Below, in pieces: positions 1,820-64,000 of a DNA stretch of 64,000 nucleotides. Position 1 is the stretch's first letter. Each line of letters opens with the position of its first letter. The notes under the pieces are model-generated. The model was not told the DNA's origin and ran no database searches. It saw only the letters and a list, made by a program, of their open reading frames with translations. A program made the translations under genes and the position numbers. Source of the DNA: Lingula anatina. Lineage: Eukaryota > Animalia > Brachiopoda. The stretch spans positions 5,518,001 through 5,582,000 of the forward strand of contig CM120649.1 of assembly GCA_051362555.1 (NCBI GenBank), written 5' to 3'.

Positions 1820-2577
1820 ATGCTGCCAACTGTCAGTGAAAAGTCTGCCGAGCCAGGAGTGACTGTCATCACAGACGGTGGGTCCTCTGGACGTGACGGC
1901 GCTGAGGTAAATGCGTCTACTTTGAAGATGTTTAGGCTAGGAATTTTTTCTCTAACTTGGGTCATTCCACAAACAAGTGAACAGTTGAGTCGCGTCAGTC
2001 ACTTTGCTTTTGTTGTGAATATTCAGCGTTTTTTCATTTTTTTTTTTTTCACACATATTTTAGTATGGAGTTTTCATGTTTTAGCAAAATTATCATGCTG
2101 GCAATGGTGAATGTAATTAGTAATTTTTGCAAGTATAGATAAACAATAAAATTAGATTGCCTTCGATAAAGTAATTTTTTATGATAATGGATACAAAGAC
2201 GAGGAAATTCTGACTCAATCCCATTGTCAGATTGCCATTTTTTGTCTGTCGCCCAGACTTTCAATGCAAAATATAAGTTGTTGCAATTATTTGCACCGTT
2301 TTCAAAATTTTCATAAAATTATATTTTTAAATAGTTGCATCAATTTCTTTTAAAAACAGTTGGCGATGAGATAAACAATAATATTCCAACTTTATTTTTG
2401 TTCCAATTTATCTTTTAATTTGTTATATTTCAGACCAAGGCCTCGTACAAGAAGTACATAATTGTTGCTGTTGCTCTCATTGTTGTTGTTGCTGTTGCTG
2501 TCGGTGGAACGTTGGGAGCAGTTCACATCTCTAACAAGGCAGCACAAGATGTGTGGAAGGTGGGTATACGGTATCAC

Positions 2578-2622
<45 letters not shown>

Positions 2623-3957
2623 TAATAATAACAATAGAATATTTGGGAATTATGCTAATTTACATTTATGACACAAACAGATCACTTTAGAAGAAGCTTA
2701 AATTTAGCACGCGAATGAAATATCTCACTTCCAATACGCATCGATCTGGTTTTAAAGGAAAGCGGTGGAATAATATGCAAAGAAATGTGAGCAATTAAAA
2801 CTAACGATCTCATCGCCATCATCATCTAATGTGATAATTATTATTTATTCAGGAGTACCATCTCCGTTTAACCGACAAACAAGGGAAGAAAGTTGACGAA
2901 AAGGTTCAGGTTGATCTGAAGGACAACATCACCGTGTACAACGTGAACAACGAGATGTTCCACGTTGCCATGGACAACTCGAGGGTGGGTAGAGGGGGTT
3001 TTAACGTTATTGTGGAAATTGCTAATCAAAGGCGGAATATTTTACTTATACTACCTTTTACTACCTTTCAATTTTTATGTGTTTTGAATGCCAATAAAGT
3101 TAGTTTGTCGGCTAAAATATTCTGTGGGAATATCCCATTCCTTTCAGGGTCTGGTAGTATACAAGATGGAAATGAATGACAAGTTTGCTTGTTACTTGAC
3201 TCCAATGAACAAATCTGAAGAGACTGACAGCAAGGACGTGGCCAACGCTTTGGAACAACCGGTGCGATTTACTTCATATTAATTTGGACTTTGAATCTGT
3301 GTTTACATCTTCACATACACATTATTTTAATTGTGTTTAAATATATAAAGTGGCATTTAAACATGTACAGGATATGAATAAAACCGTAATCTAACCTATA
3401 CCATCATGCTTTTAGAACACCGTCGAAAATACGACATCAGATGAAGATAATGAACAAAAACAATTCGTCGCCAACACCTCCCCGATCAAGGACAAGTCCT
3501 TCCTAAGTTCCAGGATGAAGGAATTCTGCAGGAATCTGGAGGCATACTGGCTTACTCAGAAGGACGGCAACACTGTAGCCAGCACCCAAACCGCGGCAGG
3601 TACGCAAAATATAAATCTCTGAAATGTTAATCATTTCCTGATTCAATACGTACAACTATGACCATGCAGTAAATTTACTTTTTACTTTCTACGTACATGT
3701 AGAATCTACAAGACATTAGGAACATTAACATTACCCATCGTTTCGATTATATTATATTATATTATATTATATTATATTATATTTTATTATATTATATTAT
3801 AGGAGGTAAACGCCAAAAGCGAGCTTGCTACCGAATACGTTCCATATGCCCGTATAGAATAAGCACATGCATTAGGACCAGGATCGGTTTTCAGTGGAAT
3901 TGCGGTACTACGTGTATATACAGACCCTGTTGGAGGTACATATGCTCTGGTAAATAA
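1820..3957 (+). CDS. BRICHOS-domain peptide precursor, copy 1 (265 aa); exons 1820-1906, 2434-2559, 2853-2984, 3148-3261, 3416-3599, 3803-3957; predicted mature peptide ACYRIRSICPYRISTCIRTRIGFQWNCGTTCIYRPCWRYICS(GK)
   Basis: All five introns are GT-AG (phases 0,0,0,0,1) and the spliced ORF is open. TM segment YIIVAVALIVVVAVAVGGTLGAV. BRICHOS hallmarks: AMDNSRGLVVYK (conserved Asp), ACYLTPM (Cys1), PIKDKSFLSSRMKEFCRNLEAYWL (Cys2). Furin site RQKR. Exon structure is conserved in 4 other complete copies. Confidence 0.9.
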
Positions 3958-4977
3958 ACGCTGCTGCTAAATATATGTTTAACACAAAGATTTTTGCAAA
4001 GCGTGATTAGTCAACTTTAGTCAACTTCCCGCGGCCATGTCTATCCAAGAATATTTCAGAAATCTAAATGAAACAGGGTTTATCCACTGTTACATGAGTA
4101 TTTATGATATAGGAGCCACATGGTACCAGTACAGAGTGAGGTTTCAGAAAAAATCCCCTCCAAAATTCTCAATCAGCCACTCCCAGTTTTTTTTTTCAAT
4201 AATACCCATGTATGCATTTTTTGTGTGTGTAAACTGTCATAACAACAACAGTGAAATCATTATCCCAGCTAATGATAAGTTATGCATCATTTAGTTATTG
4301 TTCTATTAGCAATGGCTCTATTACTATTTGTTTGTAATCAAATAGATTAAGCAATGTCTGACTTTTTTGGTGACTTTTTTTTTTTGCATCGTTTTACGTA
4401 ATCAAAAAACAAAGATGCCAAAAATAAGGCGTAAAAGGTTTTTCATGGTCTCTGACGGATAAATAGTAAATCATATTTAGGATATGAGGGCCACATGGTT
4501 CTAGTACAGAATGGTGTTTAAGAAAATCCCTTCCACAGTTCTTAATCAGGGCCCCTGTTTTGTTATTAATAAATTCCATTTGTGCATTTTTGTATGTTAA
4601 CTCTAATGTCGGCAACATTAAAATTGTTTTCATAGGTTATTGTTAGTTATACACCTTTTATTTGTGCTTCCTTTGCCTTGTTATTAGCTTTGAATTCGAA
4701 AGATGAATAAAAGACACTACCTGACCTTTTGCTAAGTTGTCATTGTTTTTTTAATGGCTTTTATTTATTTATAAAAAACATATATATCAATCAATGATGT
4801 TAGAATTCGGTGAAATAGGCTGTTCACAGTTTTTCTCGAAATGGTAGTTAAAAAATCACGATTTCAAAAGAGATAAAATGTGTTTTCGACGTATGAGGTG
4901 TTACTTTCAACCCTTCATCACAGCGGCTTGTTCACATGACTGCTTGGCTCTTTGGCAGTCTTTTTATTTTTTTATTT

Positions 4978-5020
<43 letters not shown>

Positions 5021-7270
5021 TTTTTTTGCGTGTTAAATTGAACCACAAACATCTTACTTCAGTTTTCGTGGAAGGCATTTTCTCCTCCTTTTTGAAGATT
5101 TGATAGAGATTTAAATTACCTAAGGAGTGGCACTTTATTGATGAGATACATTTATTAAATGTCTTTTTTATTCATTTCTGGTCGTTTTTTTCCTAGTCCC
5201 TGTAATAACTACACAATATGTGAATATCAGCAAGTTTCTTGACTTATGGGGTATTCCTGCTGGACGAGTTGAAAGCAGCAGGGTGTCCGAAACAGCACAA
5301 GATTTATGAAAAGATTTATGAAAATTATGCAAGGGCCTTAGGTTTTGGTTTCAAATTCCCCTATGGATAACGCCATGTTATGGCTTTTCCGAATTGACCA
5401 ACTTTTAAGAATATTTACTTTTAGGCAGTTTCTCTTTTAAAGTCACTTAAGGGAAGCTAGTCCAAGGCAGGCAAAAATGACCAATTCCAAAATATGATGT
5501 CATGACATTGTTAACAAAATGTATTCTTTCTCGTTGTTATGAGTCAGTTTCTTTGAGTATATAATAAACAAATGACTATCAAGGTGTTTATCCTTTGGCT
5601 CTTTACAAAAATCGATACTGCTTATCTGGTTAAATCTGAATTTAATCTATGTAGTATAGGTCAAAATATAGAAAAAAACGGGCTAACGGCCTTAGCCACA
5701 AGAAACAAGTTAAATTGCCATTGACACAATACAGCAAAAAAAAAAAAAGGTATCCGACAATTGATTTTTTGACTATTTTCCCCTATACACTTAGGGTTAT
5801 AACCCTTTGTACTCCAAGTTCAAAGACAACTATTTGCACAAAAGCGAAACGTTAATTACATATACGGAAGCTTACATGTTAGTGATTAGGTATTTCGTTA
5901 ATTTTAATTAACGGCCTTTACTTACCGTGGTGAATATATCTAACAAGATTCCATCCACAAAAGATAACGGACTAGATAGTATCTTATGGGTGTCAGAGGT
6001 CATTTACAATACACTTTCACAAAAGATAATGGAATAGTGAACGGACTAGATACTTTATTATGCTTTGACACATACCCATTGATATACATCATCTCCATGG
6101 CTTTCACAATGGTTGTAGTGCCCAATATCTTGACAAACGCCTCGTCTCTTGAGACTTTTATTGAATCACCACAATATATACATTCTGTAATAATAACAAT
6201 GAAAATAATGTTAACTATAACTACACAAATAAAGTTTGAAAAAGACATGTTCTTATCTTGTTTCTTATGAGATACTTAAACATCTATGCTTTATTTTCTT
6301 TATATGACCTACATGTACTTATATAATGATTGAATATCACTCTTATTAATTCAATTTTCATAAGTGCATTACAAAACTTTAAAGAACAAAATTAACTCAA
6401 GAAATAAGCAATAATATACATTAGCTAGCTAATTACTAGACTTGTATAACCTCTTGAACTTGTAACAGTTTAAATGAACTTGTAGCCTCTTACAGTACAC
6501 AAACTTGTGAAACATGACACAAATAACCTTGACTGCTGACATGAAATTTTGTCTTTTTCCTACTTTCTTTGAGCATGTACATGTGAGGTGTCGTGATTCT
6601 GTTCTCCGTGATTCTGTACGTGTCGCTTCGTTCGTCCTCTTTGAAAACCCTTTAAACTTGTTCCTTGCCTTAAATAACACGTTCAACATGTGCATCGTAA
6701 GCCATATTTTGCGATCTTGACCTTGTTTCGTCCGCGAGATTGTTTATGCAGGGCGCAACAATCTATATTAAGATTTAACAATGACAAATTAACAATTTGA
6801 ACGTTATGAAGTAGAGCAAAACGTGATGAGTAATATGTATTAGGCGGTTATGTGAAGGGTACAGTGTATCCTGAAGTTATCATGTTTTATCATGTTAAAA
6901 TGTGCATTAATCTTTTTTAGCGCTGAGGTGTCCAATTGCAATTCAAATTCTGTATAACAAACTTTTTTATATCTAAAGCACTGGGGGGACCCGCTGCCCA
7001 GACTGGTCCTTTCATAAACCATAACAAACAACCAAGGACTAGGATAAAGGCAGGGGAGGGTTGATAGTAACAATAATGAAACACGTGTAACCCTCCAATA
7101 CATAAAGAATCTGTCTGACAAATTAAAGAAAAAAGTTACAGTTCATAAACCATTCTCTACCCTTAGAAACCAATTAGTCAATGCGAAGGTCATAATAACT
7201 AAAAAAAAAGTTTTCAAACGTAGTAAACGATGTAAGGTGTAAAGAAAGAGAATGCAAAGACACACACACA

Positions 7271-7340
<70 letters not shown>

Positions 7341-8728
7341 CGAAAAACTATTAATAATGATAATACAACAGATACTCTAAATAAAAGAACTGATATAATT
7401 ACCATATGTCGGCATAAGGTGACGTAACTAACATGGAGTGCAACGTACACGCCGTGTACATAAACGGCTAATATAAAAAACAATTTTCAAATAAACCTCC
7501 TGACGATCGGGCATACCTTCTGGGTGTGCCCGTGAAACTCGGAGTCGGGGTTATTACATTGTCTCGTTTTTTTAAATTTATTTATTAATTTCAAATATAT
7601 ATATATATATATATATGCACCTGCGTTTTTGCGTGTGTTTGTGTGCGTGTGCGATATAAGCCACACGCTTCCTTTTCTTGGTTGAAGTAAAGAGTGACAA
7701 CTGAACATTTTGCCCCGACTTTTATTTACCCCAGTGACATCTGTAACACCAACCATAATAATATCTGTAATAGCAAAACGGGGCCATCATACATATAATA
7801 CAGGAGATAATAACAATAAGAATAATAAAATGATGATGATGATTTTATTAACGTTTCATGTTTAAAAATTAAACCCACCCCACTATAAGGGTTGCAAGAG
7901 ACTCAAACCTGTGAAAGTACAATTAAAATGTTTCTCGCTCTCTTCTTCATTTTAAGTACAATGTATGCATAATCACTCATTCAGTGATGTATAATAATAA
8001 CGCCCGTTTTCCACTCTGAGGGATGCGCTTCCACAATGGAGACGACAGAAAACCTATATCACCGATTTCTCCATAAACTTTGGTACTACCTTAGCAAAAA
8101 GGAAGTGCTTTCTTAAGTCTTTTATTTACTTTTTAAAAATAAAGCAAACGACAAGAGAAAAGCGTCAATTAAATATGCATCACTTGTAATGATCTAGGAT
8201 AATGAGATAATGATTTCACTGTTGTCGTGATAACAGTTAACATACAAAAATGCTCACGTGAGCCTTATTAAAAACAAAACAGGGAAGCTGATTAAGAACT
8301 TCGGAAGAAATTTTCTAAAAAAAAAAACATTCTGTATTTGTACCATGTGGTCCTATTATACTTTATATGATTTACCATTTAAACATAATTTCAGAGAGAA
8401 TGAAAAGTCTTTTTTTTTCCGCCCATTTCAACATCATTAACATACATAAAAAATTCCATAAAATACTACACCTTACCAAATGTCAATACCTGTCCGTCCA
8501 ACTCCTTTACTCATATTTCGAATATAAAGAAAAACAATAATTAGAATCCTTACTGAACGATGCATAACTTACAGCAATCTAGGATAAGTAATCTGCACTG
8601 TTGTTATGGTTCTGATATATTCTTGAATACACACGTGGATTTTTTTAAAGTCACTTGATTATTTAATAACACTGCGCACTAATTCTTGTGATAAACGAAC
8701 ATATCACAACGAAGCTTATTAACCCCAG

Positions 8729-10228
8729 CTAGTAGCATCTCTTACAGTAACCACGAGTGACTCTATAAAAACAAACAATACGAGAACCGATCCTATAGCA
8801 AATGCGTTGAATCCTTATGCAAGGGTACCAAACGCAAGCTCGCTTTTGGCGAATACCTCCTGAAATAAAATAAAATGGAATAGAATTTAATGTCCTTTAC
8901 ATTCTATATACAGAGTTATAAGTGTATTTACCTACATCTTTACTGTTGTAGGTATTGAATCGCGTTATGGTAAACATTACAGAGACTTATACTGTGCGTA
9001 CCTGCCGGGGTTTGGGTGCTGGCGCCATCTACAGTGTTGCCGTCCTTCTGAGTGAGCCAGTATGCCTCCAGATCTCTGCAGAATTCCTGCATTCTGGGAC
9101 TTAGGAAGGACTTGTCCTTGATCGGGGAGGTGTTGGCAACGAATTGTTTTTGTTCATTATCGTCATCTGATGTCGTATTTTCGACGGTGTTCTAAAAAGC
9201 ATGATGGTATAGGTTAGGCTTAGGTTTAAATCTTATCTTGCACATGTTTAAATGCCACTTTATATATTTAAACACAATCAAAAGTAAAGTGTATGTAAAG
9301 ATGTAAACACAGATTCAAAGTTCGAATTAATATGAAGTAAATCGTACCGGTTGTTCTAAAGCGTTGGCCACGTCCTTGCTGTCAGTCTCTTCAGATTTTT
9401 TCATTGGAGTCAAGTAACAAGCAAACTTGTTATTCATTTCCATCTTGTATACTACCAGACCCTAAAAGGAAACAATCGGAGTTATTCACTTTTGTTTAAA
9501 ATAATGGGATATTCTCAAAGAATATTTGGATTTTATTATAATTATAATTATTATTTATTTTATTTTATTTTATTTTATTTTATTTATTTATTTTTTTTTT
9601 TTTTTGCTGAAAAAATTGATAAAAAGAGGTATTGATGGAATATAAACATATCCAAGAAAATTAATTCTCTGACATATGAAACACATCAAAATTCAAAGGT
9701 AGTGACACATAAATGTAAACATGTTACCGCATTGAATCCAGTAAATTCTACAGATCTTAGCTTCTAGGTACTTAACATTGTTTGCATTCTGACAAAGTAT
9801 AAGCAAAATAATCCTCCTTTGATAAACAATTTTCACAATAAAGTTAGATCGCCTCTACTTACCCTCGAGTTGTCCATGGCTACGTGGAACTTCTCGTTGT
9901 TCACGTTGTACACGGTGATGTTGTCCTTCAGATCAACCTGAACCTTTTCGTCAACTTTCTTCCCTTGCTTGTCGGTTAAACGGAGATTGTACTCCTGAAG
10001 AAATAATAATAATTACATAAGGTGATGATGGTGATAAGATCGTTAGTTTTGATTGCTCACTGCTTTGCATATAATTCCACCAATTTCCTTTAAAACCAGA
10101 TAGATACGTTTTGCAATTGAGATATTTTATGCGCGTTCGAGGGTTTTTAATAAATTTAAGCTTTTACTAAAGTGATCTGTATGTGTCATAAATTATAATA
10201 AGCAGAATTCCCAAATATTCTGTTATTA

Positions 10229-10260
<32 letters not shown>

Positions 10261-11240
10261 TGTAGTGATACAGTATACCTACCTTCAACAATCCTGACAA
10301 TTAGCAAAAAATATTTTTAATGATAATAATAATAATAATCACCCTCTTTTTAGTGATACAGTATACCTACCTTCCACACGTCTTGTGCTGTCTTGTTAGA
10401 GATGTGAACTGCTCCCAAAGTTCCACCGACAGCAACAGCAACAACAACAATGACAGCAACAGCAACAATGATGTACTTCTTGTACGACGCCTTGGTCTGA
10501 AATATAACAAATCAAAAGATGAATTGGAACAAAAGAAAACTAGGAATATGACTGTTTATCTCATCGCCAACTGTGTTGTAAAGCGTTTGAAAGAAATTGA
10601 TGCAACTATCGGTATATAAAAATATAATTTTATGAAAAATTTGAAAAACGGTGCAACTACTTATACCTTGCATTGAAAGTCTGGGCGATTCACAAAAACT
10701 GATCATTTGACAATGGGATTCTGTCAGAATTTCTTCATGTTTATATTCATTATCATAAAAAAATTACATTATCGAAGGCGGTCTAATTTTATTGTTTATC
10801 TATACTTTCGAAAATGTTTTTTAAAACCATAAGTGCTTACATTGTGATAGCATATGTAAATGCAGACCTCTCATTTGTATGTCGGTTGTGAAAACACAAG
10901 ACGTAAAATAGCGTTTTTTAATGTTACAGTCGTCTTTTTTCACTAATTGCATTCACCGCCAGCATGATAATTTTGCTAAAACATAAAAATTCCATACTAA
11001 AATATGTGTGAAAGAAAGAAAATGAAAAACGATTAATATTCACAACAAAAGCAAATTGACTGATGCGACTCAAATGTTCACTTTTTTGTGGAATGACCCT
11101 AGTTAGAGTAAAAAGTTCCTGGCCTAAACATCTTCAAAAGTGGAAACACTTACCTCGGCGCTGTCACGTCCTGAGGACCCACCGTCTGTGATGACTGTCA
11201 CGCCTGGCTCGGCAGACTTTTCACTTACAGTTGGCAGCAT
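8729..11240 (-). CDS. BRICHOS-domain peptide precursor, copy 2; exons 11240-11154, 10496-10371, 9994-9863, 9461-9348, 9191-9002, 8859-8729; mature peptide ACVWYPCIRIQRICYRIGSRIVCFYRVTRGYCKRCY
   Basis: Same exon boundaries and phases as copy 1 (87/126/132/114/190 nt), GT-AG introns, intact frame, RQKR site, six Cys in the peptide, TAG stop at 8729-8731. Confidence 0.9.
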
Positions 11241-19481: not shown

Positions 19482-21243
19482 TTATAAGTGTCTAACACAT
19501 AACGTAGATAACGTTATTTGGGGTGTAACAGAAGAACTGACCAACGCCCAATACATATGACTCTTACCATAAGATTGAAGGTACAGGGCTTACATGTGCA
19601 TAAAAGGACAAGAAGATAAGTTACATAATCAGTCTATAAATTTTAAAAAGTGTAACTATCAAATCTCTCTGTCTCTCTTCACGGAAAGTCACTGCAACTT
19701 TTCGTTGCCTTTAACCTCAGCATAGCTCCTCCTTTTTTTTTTTTGTTCACGGACTTGCATCATTTTCCTATTGGCACGTGAGTGGTTTGATAGACCCCCC
19801 CCCCCAATTAACACGTGTAAAAGAGCAGATTATTTGCCTAAATATATATTTGGCATCGGCGTCAAGAGCAAATTAACTAAAACATTTTTTCTAGTTTTCT
19901 CGAAATGAATTTTACACGTTTTGTATTGTGTTGTTCAAATTACCTAACGATTGGTCAGATACTTCAAAAAATACTTACGGTTTTTCTTCCTTGTTGTCAT
20001 GTTCTTAAAAGCAGTGCGTTTTTTTTTTTTTTTTTGGAAAGTTTCTCACCTCATCAACATATGAAAGCGCTTTTTATTTCTGCCTATGAACTTGGCAGAC
20101 ATTGCTCCGTCTTTTGTATGGAAAACTTGTTTGTCAAAGATCTCATTTATGCGTTGAATTTGGTTTATTGCACCTTTTGTATCATGTGAATACTTATTAA
20201 AATCACCCAACCATTGATCAGATACTTAACAAAATGCTTAGGGTTTTTTACAATTTTTTCCTGGTTGTCGAAAACTTTCCCATCACATCAACATATAAAA
20301 GCGCGTTTTATTTCTGCTTAAAAACTTGGAAGACAGTGTTTTTTCTTTGATATCGAAAACCTGTTTGTCAAAGATCTCCCTCCGTGATGTCAGCTAAAAA
20401 AGAGGGTACGCCCAGCTCCCAGCAGACGGCGAACTCGATCGGTCGGAAAAAGTAAAGCCTTGAGTGCTGCTCTCTGATAGAACAGTTTTGATATACTTTC
20501 AAGATGCTGCCAACTGTCAGTGAAAAGTCTGCCGAGCCAGGGGTGACTGTCATCACAGACGGTGGGTCCTCTGGACGTGACGGCGCTGAGGTAAGTGCGT
20601 CTACTTTGAAGATGTTTAATCCAGGAATTTTTTCTCTAACTTGGGTCATTCCACAAACAATTGAACAGTTGAGTCACGTCAGTTACTTTGCTTTTGTTGT
20701 GAATATTCAGCGTTTTTCATTTTCTTTTCATGTTTTAGCAAAATTATCATGCTTGCAATGGTGAATGTAATTAGTAATTTTTGCAAGTATAGATAAACTA
20801 GATAAACTAGATAAAATAAGACTGCCTTCGATAATGTAATTTTTTATGATAATGGATACAAAGACGAGGAAATTCTGACTGAATCCCATTGTCAGATTGT
20901 CATTTTTTGTCTGTCGTCCAGACCTTCAATGCAAAATATAAGTTGTTGCAATTACTTGCACCGTTTTTCAAAATGTTCATAAAATTATATTTTTAAATAG
21001 TTGCATCAATTTCTTTCAAACACAGTTGGCGATGAGATAAACAATAATATTCCAAGTTTATTTTTGTTCCAATTTATCTTTTAATTTGTTATATTTCAGA
21101 ATAAGGCGTCGTATAAGAAGTACATTATTATTGCTGTTGCTGTCATTGTTGTTGTCGCTGTTGCTGTCGGTGGAACGTTGGGAGCAGTTCACATCTCTAA
21201 CAAGGCAGCACAAGACGTGTGGAAGGTAGGTATACTGTATCAC

Positions 21244-21278
<35 letters not shown>

Positions 21279-23253
21279 GAATATTTGGGAATTATGCTAA
21301 TTTACATTTATGACACAAACAGATCACTTTAGAAGAAGCTTAAATTTAGCACGCGAATGAAATATCTCACTTGCAATACGTATCGATCTGGTTTTAAAGG
21401 AAAGCGGTGGAATAATATGCAAAGAAACATGAGCATTTAAAACTAACGATCTCATCGCCATAATCATCTAATGTGATTATTATTATTTCTTCAGGAGTAC
21501 CATCTCCGTTTAACAGACAAACAAGGGAAAAAAGTTGACGAAAAGGTTCAGGTTGATCTGAAGGACAACATCACCGTGTACAACGTGAACAACGAGAAGT
21601 TCCACGTTGCCATGGACAACTCGAGGGTGGGTAGAGGGGGTTTAAACGTTATTGTGTAAATTGCTAATCAAGGCGGAATATTTTACTTATACTACCTTTC
21701 ACTACCTTTCAATTTTTATGAGTTTTAAATGCCAATAAAGTTAGTTCCTTGGATATGTATATATTCCATCAATTTTGTCGGCTAAAAATCCAAATATCCT
21801 GTGGGAATATTCCATTCCTTTCAGGGTTTGGTAGTATACAAGATGGAAATGAATGACAAGTTTGCTTGTTACTTGACTCCAATGAACAAATCTGAAGAGA
21901 CCGACAGCAAGGACGTGGCCAACGCTTTGGAACAACCGGTGCGATTTACTTCATATTAATTCGGACTTTGAATCTGTGTTTACATCTAAACATACACAAT
22001 ACTTTTAATTGTGTTTAAATATATAAAGTGACATTTAAACATGTGCAAGATATGACTATAACTTAAACCTAACCTATACCGTCATGTTTTTAGAACACCG
22101 TCGAAAATACGACATCAGATGAAGATAATGAACAAAAGCAATTCGTTGTCAACACCTCCCCGATCAAGGACAAGTCCTTCCTTAGTCCCAGGATGAAGGA
22201 ATTCTGCAGGAATCTGGAGGCATATTGGCTTACTCAGAAGAACGGCAACAATGTAGCCAGCACCCATACCCCGGCAGGTACGCAAAATATAAATCTCTGA
22301 AATGTTAGTCATTTCCTGATTCAATACTTACAACTATGACCATGCAGTAAATTCACTTTTTACTTTCTACATACATGTAGAATCTACAAGACATTAGGAA
22401 CATCACCATTACCCATCGTTTCGATTATATTATATTATATTATTTTTCAGGAAGTAAACGCCAGAAGCGAGCTTGCTCCTGGATACCTTACAGGTGTCCG
22501 TGTAGAATAGGCACATGCATAAGGTTCAGGATCGGTTCTCGGTGGCATTGCCGTTATAGGTACATATACATTGTAAGACCCTGTAGGAGGTACATATGCT
22601 CTGGTAAATAAACGCTGCTGCTAAATATAGTTTAACACAAATATTTTTGCAAAGTGTGATTAGTCAACTTAAAAAACTTCCCGCGACCATGTCTATCCCA
22701 GAATATTTCAGAACCATAAATTAAACAGGGTTAATCCACTGTTACATGGGTATTCATGAAATAGGAGCCACATGGTACCAGTACAGAGTGACGTTTCAGA
22801 AAAATCCCCTCCAGAGTTCTTAATCAGCCAATCCCAGGTTTTTTTTCAATAATACCCATGTGTGTATTTTTTGGTGTGTTAACTGTCATAACAACAAATC
22901 ATTATCCCAGCTAATAGTAAGTTATGCATCATTTAGTTATTGTTCTATTAGCAATGACTCTATTACTATTTGTTTGTATTCAAATAGATTAAGCAATAAT
23001 TGACTTTTTGGTAAAATGTTTTTTTAAATAAATTCCACGTGTGCATTTTTATATGTTAACTGTAATGACGGCATCATTAAAATGATTATCCTAGGTTATT
23101 GTTAGTTGATTATCCTAGGTTATTGTTCTTTTAGTTGTGCTTCCTTTCCGTTGTTATTTGCTTCGAATTTGAAAGATGAATTAAAGACACTACCTGACCT
23201 TTTGCTAAGTTGTCACTGTTTTTCTTAAATGCTTTTATTTTTTTACAAAAAAA

Positions 23254-25513: not shown

Positions 25514-25943
25514 CTGCCGGGATTCGTACGGTGGCGCCATCTACAGTGTTGCCGTCATTCTGAGTGAGCCAGTATTCCTCCAGATCCCTGCAGAATTCCT
25601 GCATCCTGGGACTTAGGAAGGATTTGTCTTTGATCTGGGAAGTATTTACAACGAAGCTTTCTTGGTCATCATCATCACCATCTTCATCATCTGTCGTGTT
25701 CTCGACGGCGTTCTAAAAGAAAAACTGCACAGGTTATGTGAAGATTTTTTTCATGTCTTGCAATTTTTTTCATATGTTTATATCTATATTTTCAAACACA
25801 ATCAACAGCAACATTTATGAAAAAAGGTAAACAAAAAGACTGAATAAATAATGACGTTTGTTGTACAGGCTGTTCCATAGCGCTGACCACGTCGAGGCGA
25901 GTAACAAGCAACCTTGCATTTCCATCTTGTATACTACTAGACT
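25514..25943 (-). pseudogene. Truncated BRICHOS precursor pseudogene (exons 4 and 5 only)
   Basis: The exon-5 homolog at 25712-25514 is intact (NAVENTTDDEDG...FCRDLEEYWLTQ). The exon-4 homolog at 25943-25867 is 77 nt versus 114 nt (frameshifting deletions). No recognisable exons 1-3 or peptide exon nearby. Confidence 0.8.
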
Positions 25944-30675: not shown

Positions 30676-31550
30676 TTATTTACCGTAGCATCTGTACCTA
30701 TAACAGTATCTATAATAGTATACATAACGGCAATAGTTACGAAAACCGATCCTAATGCATACGCGTCTTATATAACGGCATATACGCCACCGGTAGCAAT
30801 AGGCTCGCTTCTGGCGTTCACCTCCTGAATAATATAATATAATATAATATAATATAATATAATATAATATAATATAATATAATATAATCGAAGGGTAATG
30901 TTCCTAATGTCTTGTGGATTCTACATGTACATAGAAAGTTAAAAGTAAATTTACTGAATGGTAATTGTTGTAAGTTTTGCATCGGGTAATGGTTAGCATT
31001 TCAGAGATTTATATTTTGCGTACCTGCCGGGGTTTGGGTGCTGGCGCCATCTACAGTGTTGCCGTCCTTCTGAGTAAGCCAGTATGCCTCCAGATCCTTG
31101 CAGAATTCCTGCATTCTGGGACTTAGGAAGGACTTGTCCTTGATCGGAGAGGTGTTGGCAACGAATTGTTTTTGTTCATTATCTTCATCTGATGTCGTAT
31201 TTTCGACGGTATTCTAAAACATGATGGTATAGTTTAGGTTTAAGTTATAGTCATATCTTGCACATGTTTAAATGCCACTTTATATATTTAAACACAATTA
31301 AAAGTACTGTGTATGTAAAGATTTAAACACAGATTCAAAGTCTGAATTAATATGAAGTAAATCGCACCGGTTGTTCCAAAGCATTGGCCACGTCCTTGCT
31401 GTCGGTCTCTTCAGATTTGTTCATTGGAGTTAAGTAACAAGCAAACTTGTTGTTCATTTCCATCTTGTATACTACCAGACCCTAAAAAGAAACAATCGGA
31501 GCTTTTCACTCTTGTTTTAAATAATGGGATATTCTCAAAGAATATTTGGA

Positions 31551-31593
<43 letters not shown>

Positions 31594-33256
31594 TTATTTT
31601 TATTTATTTATTTCTTTTTTTGCTGAAAAAATTGATAAAAAACAGGTATTAATCAATGGAATATAGACATAGCCAAGAGAATTAATTCACTGACATATGA
31701 AACACATCAAAATTGAAAGGTAGTGACACATAAATGTAAACATGTTACCGCGTTGAATCCCGTAAATTCTACAGATCTCAGCTTAGAGGTACTTAACATT
31801 GTTTGCATTCTGACAAAGTATAAGCAAAATAATCCTCCTTTGATAAACAATTTTCACAATAAAGTTAGATCGCCTCTACTTACCCTCGAGTTGTCCATGG
31901 CTACGTGGAACTTCTCGTTGTTCACGTTGTACACGGTGATGTTGTCCTTCAGATCAACCTGAACCTTTTCGTCAACTTTCTTCCCTTGCTTGTCGGTTAA
32001 ACGGAGATGGTACTCCTGAAGAAATAATAATAATCACATAAGGTGATGATGGTGATAAGATCGTTAGTTTTGATTGCTCACTGCTTTGCATATAATTCCA
32101 CCAATTTCCTTTAAAACCAGATAGATACGTTTTGCAATTGAGATATTTTATGCGCGTTCGAGGGTTTTTAATAAATTTAAGCTTTTACTAAAGTGATCTG
32201 TATGTGTCATAAATTATAATAAGCAGAATTCCCAAATATTCTGTTATTATTGTTATTATTATTATTATTATTATTTGTAGTGATACAGTATACCTACCTT
32301 CAACACATCCTGACAATTAGCAAAAAATATTTTTAATGATAATAATAATAATAATCACCCTCTTTTTAGTGATACAGTATACCTACCTTCCACACGTCTT
32401 GTGCTGTCTTGTTAGAGATGTGAACTGCTCCCAAAGTTCCACCGACAGCAACAGCAACAACAACAATGACAGCAACAGCAACAATGATGTACTTCTTGTA
32501 CGACGCCTTGGTCTGAAATATAACAAATCAAAAGATGAATTGGAACAAAAGAAAACTAGGAATATGACTGTTTATCTCATCGCCAACTGTGTTGTAAAGC
32601 GTTTGAAAGAAATTGATGCAACTATCGGTATATAAAAATATAATTTTATGAAAAATTTGAAAAACGGTGCAACTACTTATACCTTGCATTGAAAGTCTGG
32701 GCGATTCACAAAAACTGATCATTTGACAATGGGACTCTGTCAGAATTTCTTCATGTTTATATTCATTATCATAAAAAATGACATTATCGAAGGCGGTCTA
32801 ATTTTATTGTTTATCTATACTTTCGAAAATGTTTTTTAAAATCATAAGTGCTTACATTGTGATAGCATATGTAAATGCAGACCTCTCATTTGTATGTCGG
32901 TTGTGAAAACACAAGACGTAAAATAGCGTTTTTTAATGTTACAGTCGTCTTTTTTCACTAATTGCATTCACCGCCAGCATGATAATTTTGCTAAAACATA
33001 AAAATTCCATACTAAAATATGTGTGAAAGAAAGAAAATGAAAAACGATTAATATTCACAACAAAAGCAAATTGACTGATGCGACTCAAATGTTCACTTTT
33101 TTTGTGGAAAGACCCTAGTTAGAGTAAAAAGTTCCTGGATTAAACATCTTCAAAAGTGGAAACACTTACCTCGGCGCTGTCACGTCCTGAGGACCCACCG
33201 TCTGTGATGACTGTCACGCCTGGCTCGGCAGACTTTTCACTTACAGTTGGCAGCAT
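30676..33256 (-). CDS. BRICHOS-domain peptide precursor, copy 4; exons 33256-33170, 32512-32387, 32015-31884, 31481-31368, 31213-31024, 30824-30676; mature peptide AYCYRWRICRYIRRVCIRIGFRNYCRYVYYYRYCYRYRCY(GK)
   Basis: GT-AG introns, conserved exon sizes and phases, intact frame, RQKR site, six Cys, GK-stop end. Confidence 0.9.
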
Positions 33257-45710: not shown

Positions 45711-48700
45711 TTATTTACCCCTGTAGCATCTGACACACCAACCATAATAGTATCTGTAATAGCAATACCGATAATAACCGAAATAGTAGCAGTAGCGTCT
45801 TAGCCTCAAGCAACGGCGCCAGTAGCAAGCTCGCTTCTGGCGATTACCTCCTGAAATATAATATAATATAATATAATATAATATAATATAATATAATATA
45901 ATATAATATAATAAGCGAAAATCGAGACAAAACCTCACATTCAATGCCCTTTTCACACTATATACAAAGTAATCAATGAATTTACTGCTCTGGCCCTGTT
46001 GTACATGTACGTATTGCACCGTGTAATGGTTAACATTTAATAGATTAATCTTGTGCGTACCTGTCGGTGCTTGGGTGCTGACGCCATCTGTAGTACTTTC
46101 GTCTTTCTGGGTAAGCCAGTATGCCTCCAAATCCCTGCAGAATTCCTGCATTCTGGGACTGAGGAAGGACTTGTCCTTGATCGGAGAAGTGTTGGCAACG
46201 AATCGCTTTTGTTCAATATCTTCATCTGTCGTATTTTCAACGGTGTTCTAATAATATGATGGTATAGGTTAGGTAACGGTTTTATTCAAATCTTGCACCA
46301 TTTTCATCTTAAAATGTCACTTTTTATCTTTAAACGTAATTAAGGGTAACGTATACGAAAAGATGTAAACTCCGATTCAAAGTCCGAATAGAAATCAGGT
46401 ACATCATACCGGTTGTTCCAAAGCGCTGGCCACGCCCTTGCTGTCAGTCTCTTCAGATTTGTTCATTGGAGTCAAGTAACAAGCAAACTTGTTGTTCATT
46501 TCCATCTTGTATACTACAAGACTCTGAAAAGATAAAAAACCGGAAATGCATTGTTGCTTAAATGATAGAATATTTCAACTGAATACTTTTATCGACCAAA
46601 TTGATTTAAAAAACAGGTTTATAAACATAATAGAAAAATATCCAAGAAAAAACTTTATTTGCACCTAAAACACGAAAATTAAAAGAACTTGACACTTCAC
46701 TTCTTATACACTGCTCTACTGATGCGTCTCAGCGCATTTGCAATTGGCCCTGATACAATCTGGAGGTTATAGCCCAGCACGCCGTACGGAGCGCTGAACG
46801 CTAGCAAACGGAAATATCTATCTCTGCCAGACCAAAAACTTTATCCCTGCTTCAACCCCTAGGTGCTGTGTGCCAAACACAACAGGATTGTTCATGATAA
46901 TAAAAATTGATAATCCTTATAATTAAGTTCTAGCACATTTTTACAAAAGTTTATGATCAAGCAAATACATAAGCAGCGTAATGAAACACATGTATGTATG
47001 CTATTGATATTGATGCTTGAATTGTTACATTTAGCAGGTAATTATATGGTCATTATTTAGCCATCTCGATAGATGTTTTATTGTGCCATACTGTGTTATT
47101 TTGTTTTGCCCATGTGTTTAGCCTTGCGATAAACTTATTATAGAATAATACACCGGTGAAGCTAAACACATGGCTCTACTTGTAACACTGCTAAACATGT
47201 CTAGCATTTTCTTCTGTGAGAAGCTTGAAAGGCTATACGTGTTGAGCTTTTATGCATATTTCTAACCGCGTTTAGGTGATAAATGTGTGTTATATGTGTT
47301 TAAAAGCTAAACACTGATTTTACTGTGTAGAAAAGTTTCCACACAGAATTCAGTAATTTTTATGCATATCAGCTTATGGGTAATAAACATTATTTACATT
47401 CTGGCAGAGTAAAATAAGCTTGCTTTAATAAAGTTTAGACGTTTTTGCAATAACCGTCTCTACTCACCCTTGAGTTGTCCATGGCAACGTGGAACTTCTC
47501 GTTGTTCACGTTGTACACGGTGATGTTGTCCTTCAGGTCAACCTGAACCTTTTCGTCAACTTTGTTCCCTTGCTTGTCAGTTAAACGGAGATGGTACTCC
47601 TGAAGAAATAATAATAATCATATAAGGTGATGATGGTGATGGTGATGAGATCATTGGTTTTGATTCTTTGCATATAATTCAACCGACTTCCCTTAAAACC
47701 AGACTATCGATACGTTTTCCAACAGAATATCGATATGTTTTCCAACTAGGTCTTTTTAAATAGATTTAAGCTTCTACTAAAGTGATATGTTTGTGTCATA
47801 AATGACAATTAGCAAAAATGTTTTTAATGATGATGATTATAAGAATAATAATTATCACCCTCTTTTTAGTGATACCGTATACCCACCTTCCACACATCTT
47901 GTGCTGCCTTGTTAGAGATGTGAACTGCTCCCAGCGTTCCACCGACAGCAACAGCAACAACAACAATGACAGCAACAGCAACAATGATGTACTTCTTGTA
48001 CGACGCCTTGGTCTGAAATACAACAAATTAAAAGATAAATTGGAACAAAAGGATTTGGAATATAATATAATTCGCATCACCAACTGTGTTGTAAAGTGTT
48101 TTGGCGAAATTATATTCACCATTTCCAGCATGGTAATTTCGTCAAAATATGAAAATTCCATATTAGATTTGTGTGAAATCTAACTTAAAATAATTTACAG
48201 TAACTTAGCTCTTGCCATGCATGCAATTTATTATTGAATAAAGATGCCGATTCCTTCATAGAGAAACTCGAGACCCAGTGCTCTGAAAATAAGCAAATGC
48301 CGGACGGATGACTGTCTTTTCAGAAATGAAAATGTCTAAATATCTGCTTAAGCCAAACTGTTTGCTTTACAGAATAATTTGAAGCGCTTTAAAAACTTAA
48401 CTCGCTAAAATAAAAAGAGGAATGAACCCCCCTCGCACATGTCGGTGAATAAACATTGTCACAATGGATTTTAGATAAAAACATGGTCTTTTTGACAAAT
48501 TTATTTTACAACATTGCAAGGCTAAAAAGTGGGCATTTACTACCCGAAGAAAAAAAAGAAAAAGAAAAACGATAAATATTGAAAACAAAAGCAACGCAAA
48601 TGCATCACTGACGCAACTGAAATGTTCACTTTTTGTGGAATGAATCAAGTTAGAATAAAGAATCCCTGGCCTTAACTAAGTTGAGAGACTTACCTCGGCG

Positions 48701-48780
48701 CTGTCACGTCGAGAGGACCCGCCATCTGTGATGACTGTCACGCCGGATTCGGCAGACTTTTCACTGATTGTTGGCAACAT
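45711..48780 (-). CDS. BRICHOS-domain peptide precursor, copy 5; exons 48780-48694, 48012-47887, 47599-47468, 46523-46410, 46247-46061, 45850-45711; mature peptide ACYWRRCLRLRRYCYYFGYYRYCYYRYYYGWCVRCYR(GK)
   Basis: GT-AG introns, conserved phases, intact frame, RQKR site, six Cys, GK-stop end. Confidence 0.9.
46709..47327. mobile_element. CACTA/EnSpm-related insertion in intron 3 of copy 5
   Basis: Starts CACTG and ends GCTAAACACTGATTTTACTGTG, flanked by TA. Its right ~220 bp resembles the right end of the 13812-15236 element. It accounts for most of the enlarged intron. Confidence 0.5.
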
Positions 48781-48904
48781 CTTGAAAATATAACAAAATT
48801 CTTCTAGCAGAGAGCAGCATTCAAGGCCTTACTTTTTCCGACCGATCGAGTTCGCCGTCTGCTGCGAGCTGGACGTACTCTCCTTTTTATGGCTGCAGCC
48901 ATCA

Positions 48905-51890: not shown

Positions 51891-52289
51891 CTCTGATTCA
51901 ATTCTTAGGCATGTTAATAGTCTCATTATTGAACTAATAAGATATGTAAAAGTGTTTTTTTTTTGACATTTCCTGCATCTTTACAACATTGTTAGTTGAT
52001 TATGTAAAAATGATGGTAAACTTGTTATCGTGTATTGTGTAATGAAGTGTCAAAAATGGAAATAAACACATATCATCGCAGTTTGTCAGATTCAATCATC
52101 CACTATGTTCAGAATCTCAGAATGGAGGAAATTGGACATTTAATACTGTTCTATTGATATTTTTCCCATCTCATCAATTTTCTTAGTTGGTCATAAAAAA
52201 ATGGCAGTAAACTGTTAATTTTGTTTTATGTTAAAAAAGTGTTAAAATGGAAATAAACCCATTTCAGAAAAGTGCTGTCTTGTTTACAT

Positions 52290-62380: not shown

Positions 62381-63613
62381 AGGTTTTCTTACTGGCCACA
62401 GACGTGTTCCTAGATCTACCCACACGCGCGTGTTTTATGAATTTAATGTTTCTCATCAAACAAGTGCCACTCCTTAGGTAATTTAAAACTCTATGAACAC
62501 AATAAAAAGGAGGGAAAAATGCCTTCCACGAAAACTGAAAAAAAGTGTGTAGTTCAATTTTACACCCCAAATAAAGACGTAAAGACTGCCAAAATGGCAT
62601 ACAGTCAAGTGTCCAATGCGTTGTGATGAAGGGTTGAAAGTAACTCGTCATACGTCGAAAACACATTTATCTCTTTCAAAATCGTGATTTAAAAATTACC
62701 ATTACAAGAAAGACAGTGAACAGCCTATTTCACCGAATTCTAACATCGCTGATTTATGTATATTTTTTTGTAAATAAATAAAAGCCATTAAAAAACAATG
62801 ATAACAACTTAGAAAAAAGTCACATAGTGATTTTTATTCATGTTTTCTAATACAAAGCAAAAAAAACAAGACAAAAGAAGCACAACTAAAAGTTGTATAA
62901 GTAACAATAATCTAGGATACTAATTTTACTGTTGCAGACATGAGAGTTAACATACAAAAATACACACGTGGAACTTATGAATAGCAAAACAGGGAAGCTA
63001 ATTAAGAGCTTCGGAAGGGATTTTCTTTAACACCATTCTGTACGAGAACCATGCGGCCCTCATATCCTAAATATAATATACTTTTGTAACCAGCAGTTCA
63101 GATACAATGGAAAAAAATTACGCTGAAATCTAACACCATTGACATTTGATTCCGTAAATAATTTTTTTAAAAATTAAAAACTTTTCGAAAAAGTCAGTCC
63201 TTGTCTATCTAATTCCTTTACTCATTTTTCGAGCTTAAAGCAAACAACAAGAAATAAAAGCATTAATAAAAGGTGCATCACTATCTGTCATCTAGAATAA
63301 TGACTTAGCTGATATTATTATGACAGTTAACATACATTAAATGCATACTTAAGCTTTATTGAAAAGAAATGAACAAAAAAAGAAAGAAAAAAAGAAAAAG
63401 GAAAAGAAAACGGACGTTGATTAAGAACCTCTGAAGGGATTTTCTCAAAAGTCATAGCGCATTTGTACCAAGTGACGCTTATGTAACAGTGGATTACCCC
63501 GCTTTAAAAATTCAACGTTTTGAGATATTCTTGGATTTAGTACCTAAAGCTGAAAAAGTTCTAATAACCCTATGCAGTAATCTCTGTGATAAACAAATAT
63601 TTTGCCCCGACGT

Positions 63614-64000
63614 TTATTTACCCAAGCATACGTAACACAAAGCATAATAGTAATAATAATAGCAATACTGAGAAACACCGATATAGGGGCAGTAGTATCC
63701 AAGCCTCAAGCAACTGTCCAAGTAGCAAGCTCGCTTCTGGCGATTACCTCCTGAAATATAATATAATATAATATAATATAATATAATATAATATAATATA
63801 ATATAATATAATATAATATAATATAATAAGCAAAATTCGAGACAATGGCTCACATTTAATGCCCTGCACATTTTATATACAAAGTAATCAATGAGTTTAC
63901 TGCACTGGCACTGTTGTACGTTTTGCACCGAGTAACAATTAACATTTAATAGATTAATCCTGTGCGCACCTGCCGGTGCTTGGGTTTTGGCGCTCTCTAC
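63614..64000 (-). CDS. BRICHOS-domain peptide precursor, copy 6 (partial: end of exon 5 at 64000-63970, exon 6 at 63750-63614); mature peptide ACYLDSCLRLGYYCPYIGVSQYCYYYYYYALCYVCL(GK)
   Basis: Exon-5 donor (CCGGCAG/GT), an intron 5 homologous to copy 5, RQKR site, six Cys with the same spacing as copies 2 and 5, GK-stop end. The 5' part is outside the window. Confidence 0.8.
   Translation of the reverse strand, partial: VESAKTQAPAGAHRINLLNVNCYSVQNVQQCQCSKLIDYFVYKMCRALNVSHCLEFCLLYYIILYYIILYYIILYYIILYYISGGNRQKRACYLDSCLRLGYYCPYIGVSQYCYYYYYYALCYVCLGK

What the first reader, a model, noticed from the sequence alone, without database searches (positions are those of the whole stretch)
1820..64000. 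Cluster of BRICHOS precursor genes releasing hypervariable, three-disulfide, Arg/Tyr-rich peptides (candidate new antimicrobial peptide family)
Seen: at least six six-exon paralogs plus a pseudogene, not apparent from the ORF track. Each complete copy has TM + BRICHOS + RQKR, and every copy has a last-exon peptide of 36-46 aa. Peptides of copies 1-5 carry 7, 8, 10, 11 and 9 Arg/Lys (excluding the terminal GK) and no acidic residues. Established: BRICHOS domains chaperone beta-prone C-terminal peptides released by convertases (Bri2/ITM2B), and polychaete AMPs such as arenicin, alvinellacin and capitellacin are made this way, but those are ~20-22 aa hairpins with 1-2 disulfides. Inference: this is an expanded family of about twice as long, three-disulfide peptides with a host-defence role. 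I do not recognise them as a named family, but novelty needs a database search.
Basis: partly seen in the sequence, partly recalled or inferred. Interest (0 to 1): 0.95.

Follow-up and report, generated by a model that had tools for sequence, protein, structure and literature searches.

The report
Brachiopod BRICHOS long-hairpin defence peptide cluster
A lamp-shell (brachiopod) genome holds a cluster of genes, strongly expressed as a family, that join a nearly constant folding-helper domain to a fast-changing, cysteine-rich tail; the tail is likely cut off, is predicted to fold as a hairpin about twice as long as known hairpin antibiotics, and likely serves in defence against microbes.

Summary
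The window carries five complete six-exon genes, a sixth cut by the window end, a pseudogene lacking the peptide exon, and an orphan half peptide exon. Each complete gene encodes TM + BRICHOS + RQKR + a 36-46 aa peptide. Two spliced models are identical to Lingula anatina RefSeq proteins. Four peptides have 6 Cys and two have 7; five are strongly cationic, one is neutral. The family is spliced and takes 0.18-0.49% of reads in 3 of 7 RNA runs laid. AlphaFold predicts a BRICHOS fold and one long beta-hairpin. The carrier is conserved (omega 0.24), whereas peptide exons diverge faster than flanking non-coding DNA (omega 2.9-6.3, modest significance) and are swapped between copies. This is the reverse of the pattern published for alvinellacin. 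It resembles polychaete BRICHOS antimicrobial precursors but is a Lingula clade with peptides beyond the 11-25 aa of known hairpin AMPs. Similar unstudied tails occur in a clam, amphioxus and Owenia. Cleavage, disulfide pairing and antimicrobial activity are untested. One Lingula immunity paper could not be read. Verdict: new variant of a known kind.

The parts
1820..3957 (+). Copy c1, six exons (1820-1906, 2434-2559, 2853-2984, 3148-3261, 3416-3599, 3803-3957); 265 aa TM-BRICHOS-RQKR precursor
   Evidence: exons 1-5 equal RefSeq P0001; reads cover exon 6 and a 3' UTR to about 4646
3823..3954 (+). c1 putative mature peptide, 44 aa, 7 Cys, net +7, ends GK
7722..7779 (-). Orphan 3' half of a c5-like peptide exon (last three Cys, GK and stop); 85% identical over 73 nt to c5 exon 6
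8729..11240 (-). Copy c2, six exons (11240-11154, 10496-10371, 9994-9863, 9461-9348, 9191-9002, 8859-8729); 259 aa; mosaic of a c4-like carrier and a different intron-5/exon-6/UTR module
   Evidence: its C-terminal 149 aa match RefSeq P0003; junctions 1-2, 2-3 and 3-4 seen in reads
8732..8839 (-). c2 putative mature peptide, 36 aa, 6 Cys (2, 7, 14, 23, 32, 35), net +8, no GK
20504..22611 (+). Copy c3, six exons (20504-20590, 21100-21225, 21495-21626, 21825-21938, 22094-22277, 22451-22611); 267 aa, identical to RefSeq P0017
22471..22608 (+). c3 putative mature peptide, 46 aa, 7 Cys, net +10, ends GK
25514..25943 (-). Pseudogene: exon 4 remnant (77 of 114 nt, frameshifted) and intact exon 5; exons 1-3 and 6 not found; a 39-bp tandem-repeat element (25088-25272) follows the intron-5 acceptor
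30676..33256 (-). Copy c4, six exons (33256-33170, 32512-32387, 32015-31884, 31481-31368, 31213-31024, 30824-30676); 265 aa; a close variant of RefSeq P0014
30679..30804 (-). c4 putative mature peptide, 42 aa, 6 Cys, net +11, 12 Tyr, ends GK
45711..48780 (-). Copy c5, six exons (48780-48694, 48012-47887, 47599-47468, 46523-46410, 46247-46061, 45850-45711); 261 aa, identical to RefSeq P0006
   Evidence: junctions 1-2, 3-4 and 4-5 seen in reads; structure model
45714..45830 (-). c5 putative mature peptide, 39 aa, 6 Cys, net +9, 13 Tyr, ends GK; predicted single beta-hairpin (strands 224-239 and 242-257 of the precursor)
63614..64000 (-). Copy c6, cut by the window end: 3' end of exon 5 (about 64000-63970), intron 5 and exon 6 (63750-63614). 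Peptide 38 aa, 6 Cys, net 0, 12 Tyr, ends GK; same peptide as RefSeq P0020

Best explanation
This is a Lingula-specific tandem family of spliced, strongly expressed genes for membrane-anchored BRICHOS precursors, whose variable last exon encodes a peptide that is likely released by a furin-type cut after RQKR, is predicted to fold as one long disulfide-laddered beta-hairpin, and likely acts as a secreted antimicrobial host-defence peptide. Shown: gene structure, BRICHOS domain, RQKR site, composition, family-level expression and splicing, conserved carrier against a diverging peptide exon, and exchange of the 3' module between copies. Predicted: type II membrane topology and a long hairpin, with the BRICHOS domain holding this aggregation-prone, Tyr-rich hairpin during secretion. 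Inferred from established chemistry: convertase cleavage, then trimming of Lys and amidation at Gly in the GK-ending copies. Inferred by analogy with arenicin/alvinellacin-type precursors: killing of microbes through membrane binding. Duplication, exon-6 swapping and diversifying selection would keep renewing the peptide repertoire on a fixed carrier.
For: Architecture: Pfam BRICHOS above the gathering score; the family profile hits the Bri2 BRICHOS structure 8RNU at E 1e-9, with the two Cys invariant and the conserved Asp kept. AlphaFold (pLDDT 80, 89 sequences) gives a TM helix, the BRICHOS fold and one hairpin with block pLDDT 91-93 over residues 231-250; a shallower run gave the same hairpin. 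Complex prediction of carrier and peptide: weak support, score 0.60 against best control 0.02, contact agreement at least 86%, partner pLDDT at least 73. The mark was reached by 51 of 78 solved and 2 of 108 mismatched pairs, but at 0.60 or under by only 5 of 78 solved and by all 4 passing mismatches; peptides were not calibrated. RQKR is present in all 6 window copies and in 22 of 23 Lingula family proteins. Expression: 0.31%, 0.49% and 0.18% of reads in X7, X8 and X9 lay on the c5 stretch, with thousands of spliced reads. Selection: carrier omega 0.24 (p 0.001 against 1); peptide omega 6.3 for c5/c6 (p 0.03) and 2.9 for c2/c5/c6 (p 0.08); c1/c3 differ 17% in the peptide against 3% in intron 5 and 9% in the UTR. 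Net charge is +7 to +11 in 5 of 6 window peptides, Arg far over Lys, as in hairpin AMPs (PMC13001179). The same precursor plan yields tested antimicrobials in polychaetes (PMC6780910; PMC10745061).
Against: No activity, cleavage or peptidomic data exist here. c6 is neutral and P0007/P0008 carry only +3/+4. Only 2 of 17 peptides show the alternating basic pattern of classical amphipathic strands. Selection tests rest on 36 codons, one of two is not significant, and no correction was made for choosing pairs. For several distant pairs (for example c2/c3 and c2/c5) peptide and UTR divergence are similar. Nested Cys symmetry is not significant for any single peptide (p 0.07-0.58). The exon 5-6 junction is not among the rows shown in either read lay; it rests on RefSeq identity and zero intron depth. 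The tissue and any immune induction are unknown, and 4 of 7 runs laid show little or nothing. Many BRICHOS cargoes in other animals are not antimicrobial (PMC9714404). c5 has an internal RLRR that could be cut further.
Confidence: 0.65

Rival explanations
1. The peptides are secreted structural or barrier components (mucus, cuticle, chaetae, pedicle or periostracum) that self-assemble as beta-sheets or are cross-linked through their many tyrosines, with BRICHOS delaying assembly until secretion.
For: Up to 12-15 Tyr per peptide and 43-73% beta-prone residues. Very high expression in one set of runs and almost none in others. A neutral member exists (c6). BRICHOS cargoes are aggregation-prone (PMC9714404).
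Against: A rapidly diversifying, exchanged peptide exon on a conserved carrier fits an arms race better than a material. No family accession prefix searched, nor BRICHOS or PF04089, appears in the supplement of a Lingula shell proteome (PMC13425148). The 2015 genome paper has no BRICHOS in text or supplement. Small basic peptides can be missed by gel-based trypsin proteomics.
Confidence: 0.15
2. The peptides are diversifying ligands aimed at eukaryotes instead of microbes: deterrents of predators, parasites or fouling larvae, or recognition molecules (gamete or self/non-self).
For: A constant propeptide with a hypervariable disulfide-rich mature exon is also the pattern of venom and recognition peptides (own knowledge). 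Cys frames range from 2 to 10. Strong differences between runs in which peptide exon is covered.
Against: Arg/aromatic richness, hairpin prediction and likely amidation match membrane-active defence peptides. All BRICHOS-released invertebrate peptides with a reported activity in the papers read are antimicrobial. No toxin family matched in Pfam.
Confidence: 0.13
3. The tail is a dispensable or unreleased appendix that drifts under relaxed constraint, and part of the copy number is haplotype duplication in the assembly.
For: c1/c3 and c2/c4 differ by only 4.4% and 2.5% over exons 1-4 with introns, near the reported 1.6% heterozygosity (PMC4595640). One RefSeq model of c1 omits the peptide exon. 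One database locus has the same peptide as c3 (P0015). Pseudogene and orphan pieces exist.
Against: All 6 window peptide exons are open and keep RQKR and the Cys frame while other residues change. Omega is above 1, not near 1, where measurable. c2 and c4 have quite different 3' modules. The alternative RefSeq exon has almost no reads (under 4x against about 400-800x for exon 6 and UTR), and its paralogous copies are disrupted.
Confidence: 0.07

Closest known systems
Polychaete BRICHOS-AMP precursors (arenicin, alvinellacin, capitellacin, abarenicin, HfBRI-25)
   Same: Hydrophobic N-terminal region, BRICHOS, basic cleavage site, then a C-terminal cationic Cys-containing beta-hairpin; tandem multigene family with intergenic recombination (PMC6780910 passages; PMC5431198 discussion; PMC10745061 parts 1-2).
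   Different: Brachiopod, whereas a 2019 review says polychaetes only. Peptides are 35-47 aa with 2, 6, 7 or 10 Cys, against short hairpins with 1-2 disulfides. In Alvinella the peptide is monomorphic and the chaperone diversifies; here the carrier is conserved and the peptide diversifies. Activity is untested here.
Longer BRICHOS-related annelid peptides (nicomicin 33 aa, HfBRI-38/-54/-75/-91, AmBRI-44a)
   Same: Show that BRICHOS carries peptides of 33-91 aa with varied Cys numbers; some precursors are transmembrane.
   Different: Described as helix plus loop, helix plus short hairpin, or defensin-like with four disulfides. None in the text read is described as a single full-length ladder hairpin.
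Beta-hairpin AMP class, including theta-defensins (cystine ladder), protegrins and tachyplesins
   Same: Cationic, Arg over Lys, cross-strand Cys pairs, often C-terminally amidated (PMC13001179 passages).
   Different: All reviewed members are 11-25 aa with charge +1 to +8; these are 35-47 aa with charge 0 to +15. Theta-defensins are 18-residue backbone-cyclic peptides.
Chondromodulin/tenomodulin and Bri2 (vertebrate BRICHOS type II precursors)
   Same: TM + BRICHOS + furin site + Cys-containing mature C-terminus. RefSeq names some members 'leukocyte cell-derived chemotaxin 1-like'; ESM Atlas top hits are LECT1 and tenomodulin clusters at 0.91; the profile hits Bri2.
   Different: The match rests on the carrier. 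The mature part here is a short, hypervariable, multi-copy peptide, whereas chondromodulin's mature domain is a conserved chain of about 120 aa (recalled, not tested).
Unstudied invertebrate BRICHOS precursors with Arg/Tyr/Cys tails (Tegillarca granosa, Branchiostoma lanceolatum, Owenia fusiformis, unnamed records)
   Same: RxKR followed by 24-49 aa Cys-symmetric, Tyr/Arg-rich tails; P0049 (41 aa), P0075 (42 aa) and P0128 (43 aa) have 6 Cys.
   Different: Carriers are 20-34% identical overall and fall outside the Lingula clade; Cys spacings differ; none has a described function in the papers found.

Membership tests
BRICHOS-AMP family (arenicin/alvinellacin type) | N-terminal hydrophobic region (signal peptide or TM) | tested here: met
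   Exon-2 hydrophobic segment in 5 of 5 complete copies; helix 34-66 in the model
BRICHOS-AMP family (arenicin/alvinellacin type) | BRICHOS domain in the proregion | tested here: met
   PF04089 above gathering score in 3 of 3 exon-5 tests; profile hit to 8RNU at E 9.9e-10; Foldseek ranks BRICHOS structures 1-4 but with E 0.07-0.09 only
BRICHOS-AMP family (arenicin/alvinellacin type) | Basic convertase site before a C-terminal peptide (sequence) | tested here: met
   RQKR in 6 of 6 window copies
BRICHOS-AMP family (arenicin/alvinellacin type) | Peptide actually released by cleavage | not testable with these tools
   Needs peptidomics
BRICHOS-AMP family (arenicin/alvinellacin type) | Double-stranded beta-sheet (hairpin) fold | tested here: inconclusive
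   Predicted only, for c5, in two AlphaFold runs; Cys symmetry fits; no experimental structure
BRICHOS-AMP family (arenicin/alvinellacin type) | Short peptide with one or two disulfides | tested here: not met
   36-46 aa with 6-7 Cys in the window; 2-10 Cys in the family; definition from PMC6780910
BRICHOS-AMP family (arenicin/alvinellacin type) | Cationic net charge | tested here: inconclusive
   Met in 5 of 6 window peptides (+7 to +11); c6 is 0
BRICHOS-AMP family (arenicin/alvinellacin type) | Antimicrobial activity | not testable with these tools
   No assay available
Beta-hairpin AMP class (PMC13001179) | Length 11-25 aa and charge +1 to +8 | tested here: not met
   0 of 17 distinct peptides are within the length range (35-47 aa)
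Beta-hairpin AMP class (PMC13001179) | Cys pairs at least three residues apart; Arg enriched over Lys | tested here: met
   Sequences
Theta-defensin / cyclic cystine ladder | 18-residue backbone-cyclised peptide with three disulfides | tested here: not met
   Linear 36-46 aa peptides from one precursor
AmBRI-44a defensin-like BRICHOS peptide | Four disulfides, defensin-like fold | tested here: not met
   No family peptide has 8 Cys; definition from a review passage; its sequence was not seen
Chondromodulin/tenomodulin | Conserved long Cys-rich mature domain (recalled) | tested here: not met
   Mature part is 36-46 aa and hypervariable; no Pfam hit for 5 peptide exons and no PDB sequence hit for the c5 peptide

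The most novel reading that the evidence does not exclude
Lingula has a modular peptide-antibiotic system in which one conserved BRICHOS carrier serves a swappable last-exon cassette. The cassette encodes the longest single-hairpin defence peptides yet seen (35-47 aa), with a cystine ladder tuned from one to five rungs, renewed by positive selection and exon-6 exchange, and differing between individuals. It would be the first BRICHOS antimicrobial family outside annelids and a pointer to an unrecognised, widespread class in bivalves, amphioxus and other invertebrates.
Probability: 0.4. Interest if true: 0.8.

Novelty: new variant of a known kind. Interest (0 to 1): 0.6.

Why it matters
If the peptides are antimicrobial, they extend the BRICHOS-AMP route beyond annelids and double the known size range of single-hairpin AMPs. 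They would also supply a natural series of 17 sequences on one scaffold, with 2 to 10 cysteines and charge 0 to +15, in which structure and activity can be compared. The family inverts the alvinellacin pattern: here one nearly constant chaperone serves very different beta-prone cargoes, which bears on how BRICHOS recognises clients by structure and not by sequence. The profile search also shows about a hundred unstudied invertebrate precursor clusters of the same plan, many with comparable tails.

Tried and rejected
No whole genome is held for the window, so copy number outside it comes from RefSeq proteins only. Pfam found nothing for 5 peptide exons at E up to 10, and PDB sequence search found nothing for the c5 peptide; APD, DRAMP and nr BLAST were not available. 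Foldseek of the low-confidence first model gave no meaningful hit; the better model gave BRICHOS at the top but no E under 0.001. A peptide HMM scan of the window's six frames printed no rows and is not used; the orphan exon comes from tblastn and blastn. The alternation test for amphipathic strands was positive in 2 of 17 peptides. The pooled Cys-symmetry statistic (45 against a null mean of 141) is inflated by shared ancestry and is not used as a p-value. The careful tree did not finish; the quick tree is used. The run search listed no RNA holder by index; the 9 runs came by species label and 7 were laid (X2 and X6 not). The RefSeq alternative last exon of c1 was rejected. A shell-matrix role found no support in two papers' supplements. 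Gerdol et al. 2018 on Lingula immunity is not held; I saw only its citation, and it may already mention these genes. Text search of the abarenicin paper for peptide motifs found nothing, so the arenicin-like look of P0102 is recalled and not tested.
Full report
Observation. A six-frame scan found RQKR followed by a Cys-rich open segment at six places. Exons of the first copy were delimited from the sequence and mapped across the window. This gave five complete six-exon genes with GT-AG introns: c1 (+, 1820-3957), c2 (-, 11240-8729), c3 (+, 20504-22611), c4 (-, 33256-30676) and c5 (-, 48780-45711). c6 is cut by the window end and shows only the end of exon 5 and exon 6. A pseudogene at - 25943-25514 keeps a deleted exon 4 and an intact exon 5, but a 39-bp repeat element follows its intron-5 acceptor and no peptide exon was found. 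An orphan half peptide exon lies at - 7779-7722.

Identity. Exon 5 alone exceeds the Pfam BRICHOS cut-off in 3 of 3 copies tested, and 5 peptide exons hit nothing. Two homolog searches returned 12 and 13 proteins, all named Lingula anatina. The spliced models of c3 and c5 are identical to RefSeq P0017 and P0006, and c6's peptide equals that of P0020. Database names list 15 locus ids plus one further protein, annotated 'uncharacterized' or 'leukocyte cell-derived chemotaxin 1-like'; some may be allelic duplicates. Window and database together give 17 distinct peptides of 35-47 aa with 2, 6, 7 or 10 Cys and net charge 0 to +15. So the genes are annotated, but the peptide family has no name in those records.

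Expression. Nine RNA runs were offered by species label and 7 were laid. On the c5 stretch, 34,561 of 11.05 M, 52,884 of 10.71 M and 20,458 of 11.51 M reads were laid in X7, X8 and X9 (0.31%, 0.49%, 0.18%). These include reads from all paralogs at 90% likeness or better. Junctions 1-2, 3-4 and 4-5 appear at the predicted places, and the intron-5 bin has zero depth. Junction 2-3 appears. The 5-6 junction is not among the rows shown; it abuts a microsatellite where the tool drops rows. X1, X3 and X5 showed essentially only low-complexity partial matches, and X4 a trace with a few spliced reads. The tissues are unknown. The body of the c5 peptide exon had depth about 154 in X7, 1.6 in X8 and 0 in X9, while a carrier exon had 4,000-11,000. 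Thousands of reads match the first codons after RQKR and then continue with other Cys-containing sequence (loose ends). The expressed repertoire therefore differs between samples and from the window, through alleles, presence/absence or regulation; these data cannot separate the three. RefSeq's alternative last exon for c1 (about 5198-5309) has under 4x depth against about 400-800x for exon 6 and its UTR, and its paralogous copies are disrupted, so it is likely a mis-annotation.

Structure. AlphaFold with 89 sequences (pLDDT 80, pTM 0.56) gives a TM helix, a BRICHOS fold, a disordered linker, and the peptide as one hairpin with strands 224-239 and 242-257. The 12-sequence run gave the same hairpin as its most confident part. 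The family profile matches Bri2 BRICHOS (8RNU, E 9.9e-10) and proSP-C. Foldseek ranks these first but without significant E-values. In the hairpin register C1-C6 and C3-C4 face each other and C2-C5 is offset by two. In all 16 peptides with four or more Cys the nested pair sums agree within 2-4 positions, and the 2-Cys member keeps exactly the outer pair. This suggests a cystine ladder, but no single peptide is significant (p 0.07-0.58) and the pairing is inferred. A complex prediction of carrier and peptide gave weak support: 0.60 against a best control of 0.02, contact agreement at least 86%, partner pLDDT at least 73. At that level the calibration passed 5 of 78 solved pairs and all 4 passing mismatches, and peptides were not calibrated.

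Evolution. Carriers are 88-98% identical in protein with dN/dS about 0.17-0.23, and the peptides are about 31-64% identical over aligned residues. A codon model gives omega 0.24 for carrier exons 2-4 (p 0.001), 6.3 for the c5/c6 peptides (p 0.03) and 2.9 for c2/c5/c6 (p 0.08). Peptide DNA diverges more than the flanks in close pairs: c1/c3 17% against 3% (intron 5) and 9% (UTR); c3/c4 26% against 12% and 15%; c5/c6 23% against 14% and 19%. In several distant pairs involving c2 it does not. c2 and c4 differ 2.5% over exons 1-4 with introns, yet 20-65% from intron 5 onward, where c2 is closest to the pseudogene and c4 to c1/c3. The 3' module was therefore exchanged near the exon-5/intron-5 boundary. 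In Alvinella the reverse is reported: a monomorphic peptide with a diversifying chaperone (PMC5431198, abstract and first part of the discussion read).

Distribution. A profile search of 1.84 billion representatives gave 110 hits at E up to 0.001. Many end in RxKR plus a Cys-symmetric, Tyr/Arg-rich tail, including 41-43 aa tails with 6 Cys. Of 20 looked up, 3 are other Lingula genes, 2 Owenia, 2 Branchiostoma, 1 clusters with Tegillarca, and 12 have no organism. In a quick carrier tree of 89 rows the 12 Lingula family rows form one clade (SH-aLRT 97) with short branches, the 2-Cys type sister to the rest. The plan is thus widespread, and the expansion is Lingula's own. An earlier scan note on a clam BRICHOS peptide gene agrees with the wide spread; it is an unchecked lead.

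Literature. Searches for BRICHOS with Lingula (1 irrelevant paper) and with brachiopod (0) found no description; searches listed none either (listings only). A 2019 review says BRICHOS-AMPs were identified in polychaetes only and have one or two disulfides (PMC6780910, passages). Heteromastus yields 13 peptides of 18-91 aa, five with TM precursors (PMC10745061, parts 1-2 of 8). AmBRI-44a is defensin-like with four disulfides (PMC11767717, passage). A 2026 review gives 11-25 aa and +1 to +8 for all hairpin AMPs (PMC13001179, passages). AlphaFold models place most human BRICHOS cargoes in the face A groove (PMC9714404, part 1 of 3). The Lingula genome paper (term search of text and supplement) and a Lingula shell proteome (term search of text and supplement) do not mention BRICHOS. 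PMC6265681, PMC9410094 and PMC7203481 were term-searched only. Gerdol et al. 2018 on Lingula immunity is not held, so prior mention there cannot be excluded; most subscription papers are outside the library.

Mechanism and verdict. Most likely (0.65) the precursor enters the secretory pathway as a type II membrane protein, BRICHOS shields the beta-prone tail while its disulfides form, and a furin-type convertase cuts after RQKR. The GK-ending peptides are then trimmed and amidated, and the released hairpins act on microbes. Gene structure, domain, expression and the evolutionary contrast are shown; fold and chaperone binding are predicted; cleavage, amidation and activity are inferred. Rivals are a structural or barrier role (0.15), eukaryote-directed ligands (0.13), and drift plus assembly duplication (0.07). 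It works like the polychaete BRICHOS-AMP system but fails that family's size and disulfide criteria, and the defining activity is untested.

Noticed in passing
window 5198-5309 (+); related copies 23823-23956 (+), 29469-29334 (-), 44770-44633 (-): RefSeq P0001 ends c1 with this alternative exon in place of the RQKR exon. It has almost no reads and its paralogous copies are interrupted; likely a mis-annotation.
   Followed up: yes
window 3746-3801, 30829-30888, 45855-45913, 63755-63828; 25310-25369: An (ATTAT)n microsatellite of 11-15 units sits directly before the acceptor of the peptide exon in c1, c4, c5 and c6 (shorter in c3, nearly absent in c2); the pseudogene has a (CTACT)n-type run there. 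It could favour exchange of the last exon; untested.
   Followed up: no
database proteins P0004 and P0009: Two RefSeq isoforms of one locus share exons 1-4 but differ in exon 5 and the peptide (6 Cys against 10 Cys): either alternative splicing of peptide cassettes or a chimeric model of neighbouring paralogs.
   Followed up: no
window 45806-45795 (-): The c5 peptide holds an internal RLRR, a second possible convertase site.
   Followed up: no
window 48903-49917, 50779-51890, 52286-53316, 38676-39082: Tandem repeats of 466 bp x2.2 (directly upstream of c5 and related to the upstream region of the other copies), 161 bp x6.9, 337 bp x3.1 and 226 bp x1.8.
   Followed up: no
window 12388-12843 (+), 18000-18401 (-), 43242-43640 (-): Open frames that look like retrotransposon fragments (reverse transcriptase, endonuclease and LTR pol-like), judged from recalled motifs; not tested by a tool.
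   Followed up: no
window 24400-25300: GC-rich inserted element with 39-bp repeats at the point where the pseudogene's peptide exon should start.
   Followed up: partly
database proteins P0024, P0027, P0036: Other Lingula BRICHOS precursors, more distant from this family, with different Cys-rich tails; only P0027 was in the tree.
   Followed up: partly
database proteins P0083 and P0130: Unnamed BRICHOS precursors whose tails hold two Cys-rich peptides separated by an acidic spacer and further basic sites, suggesting two products from one precursor.
   Followed up: no
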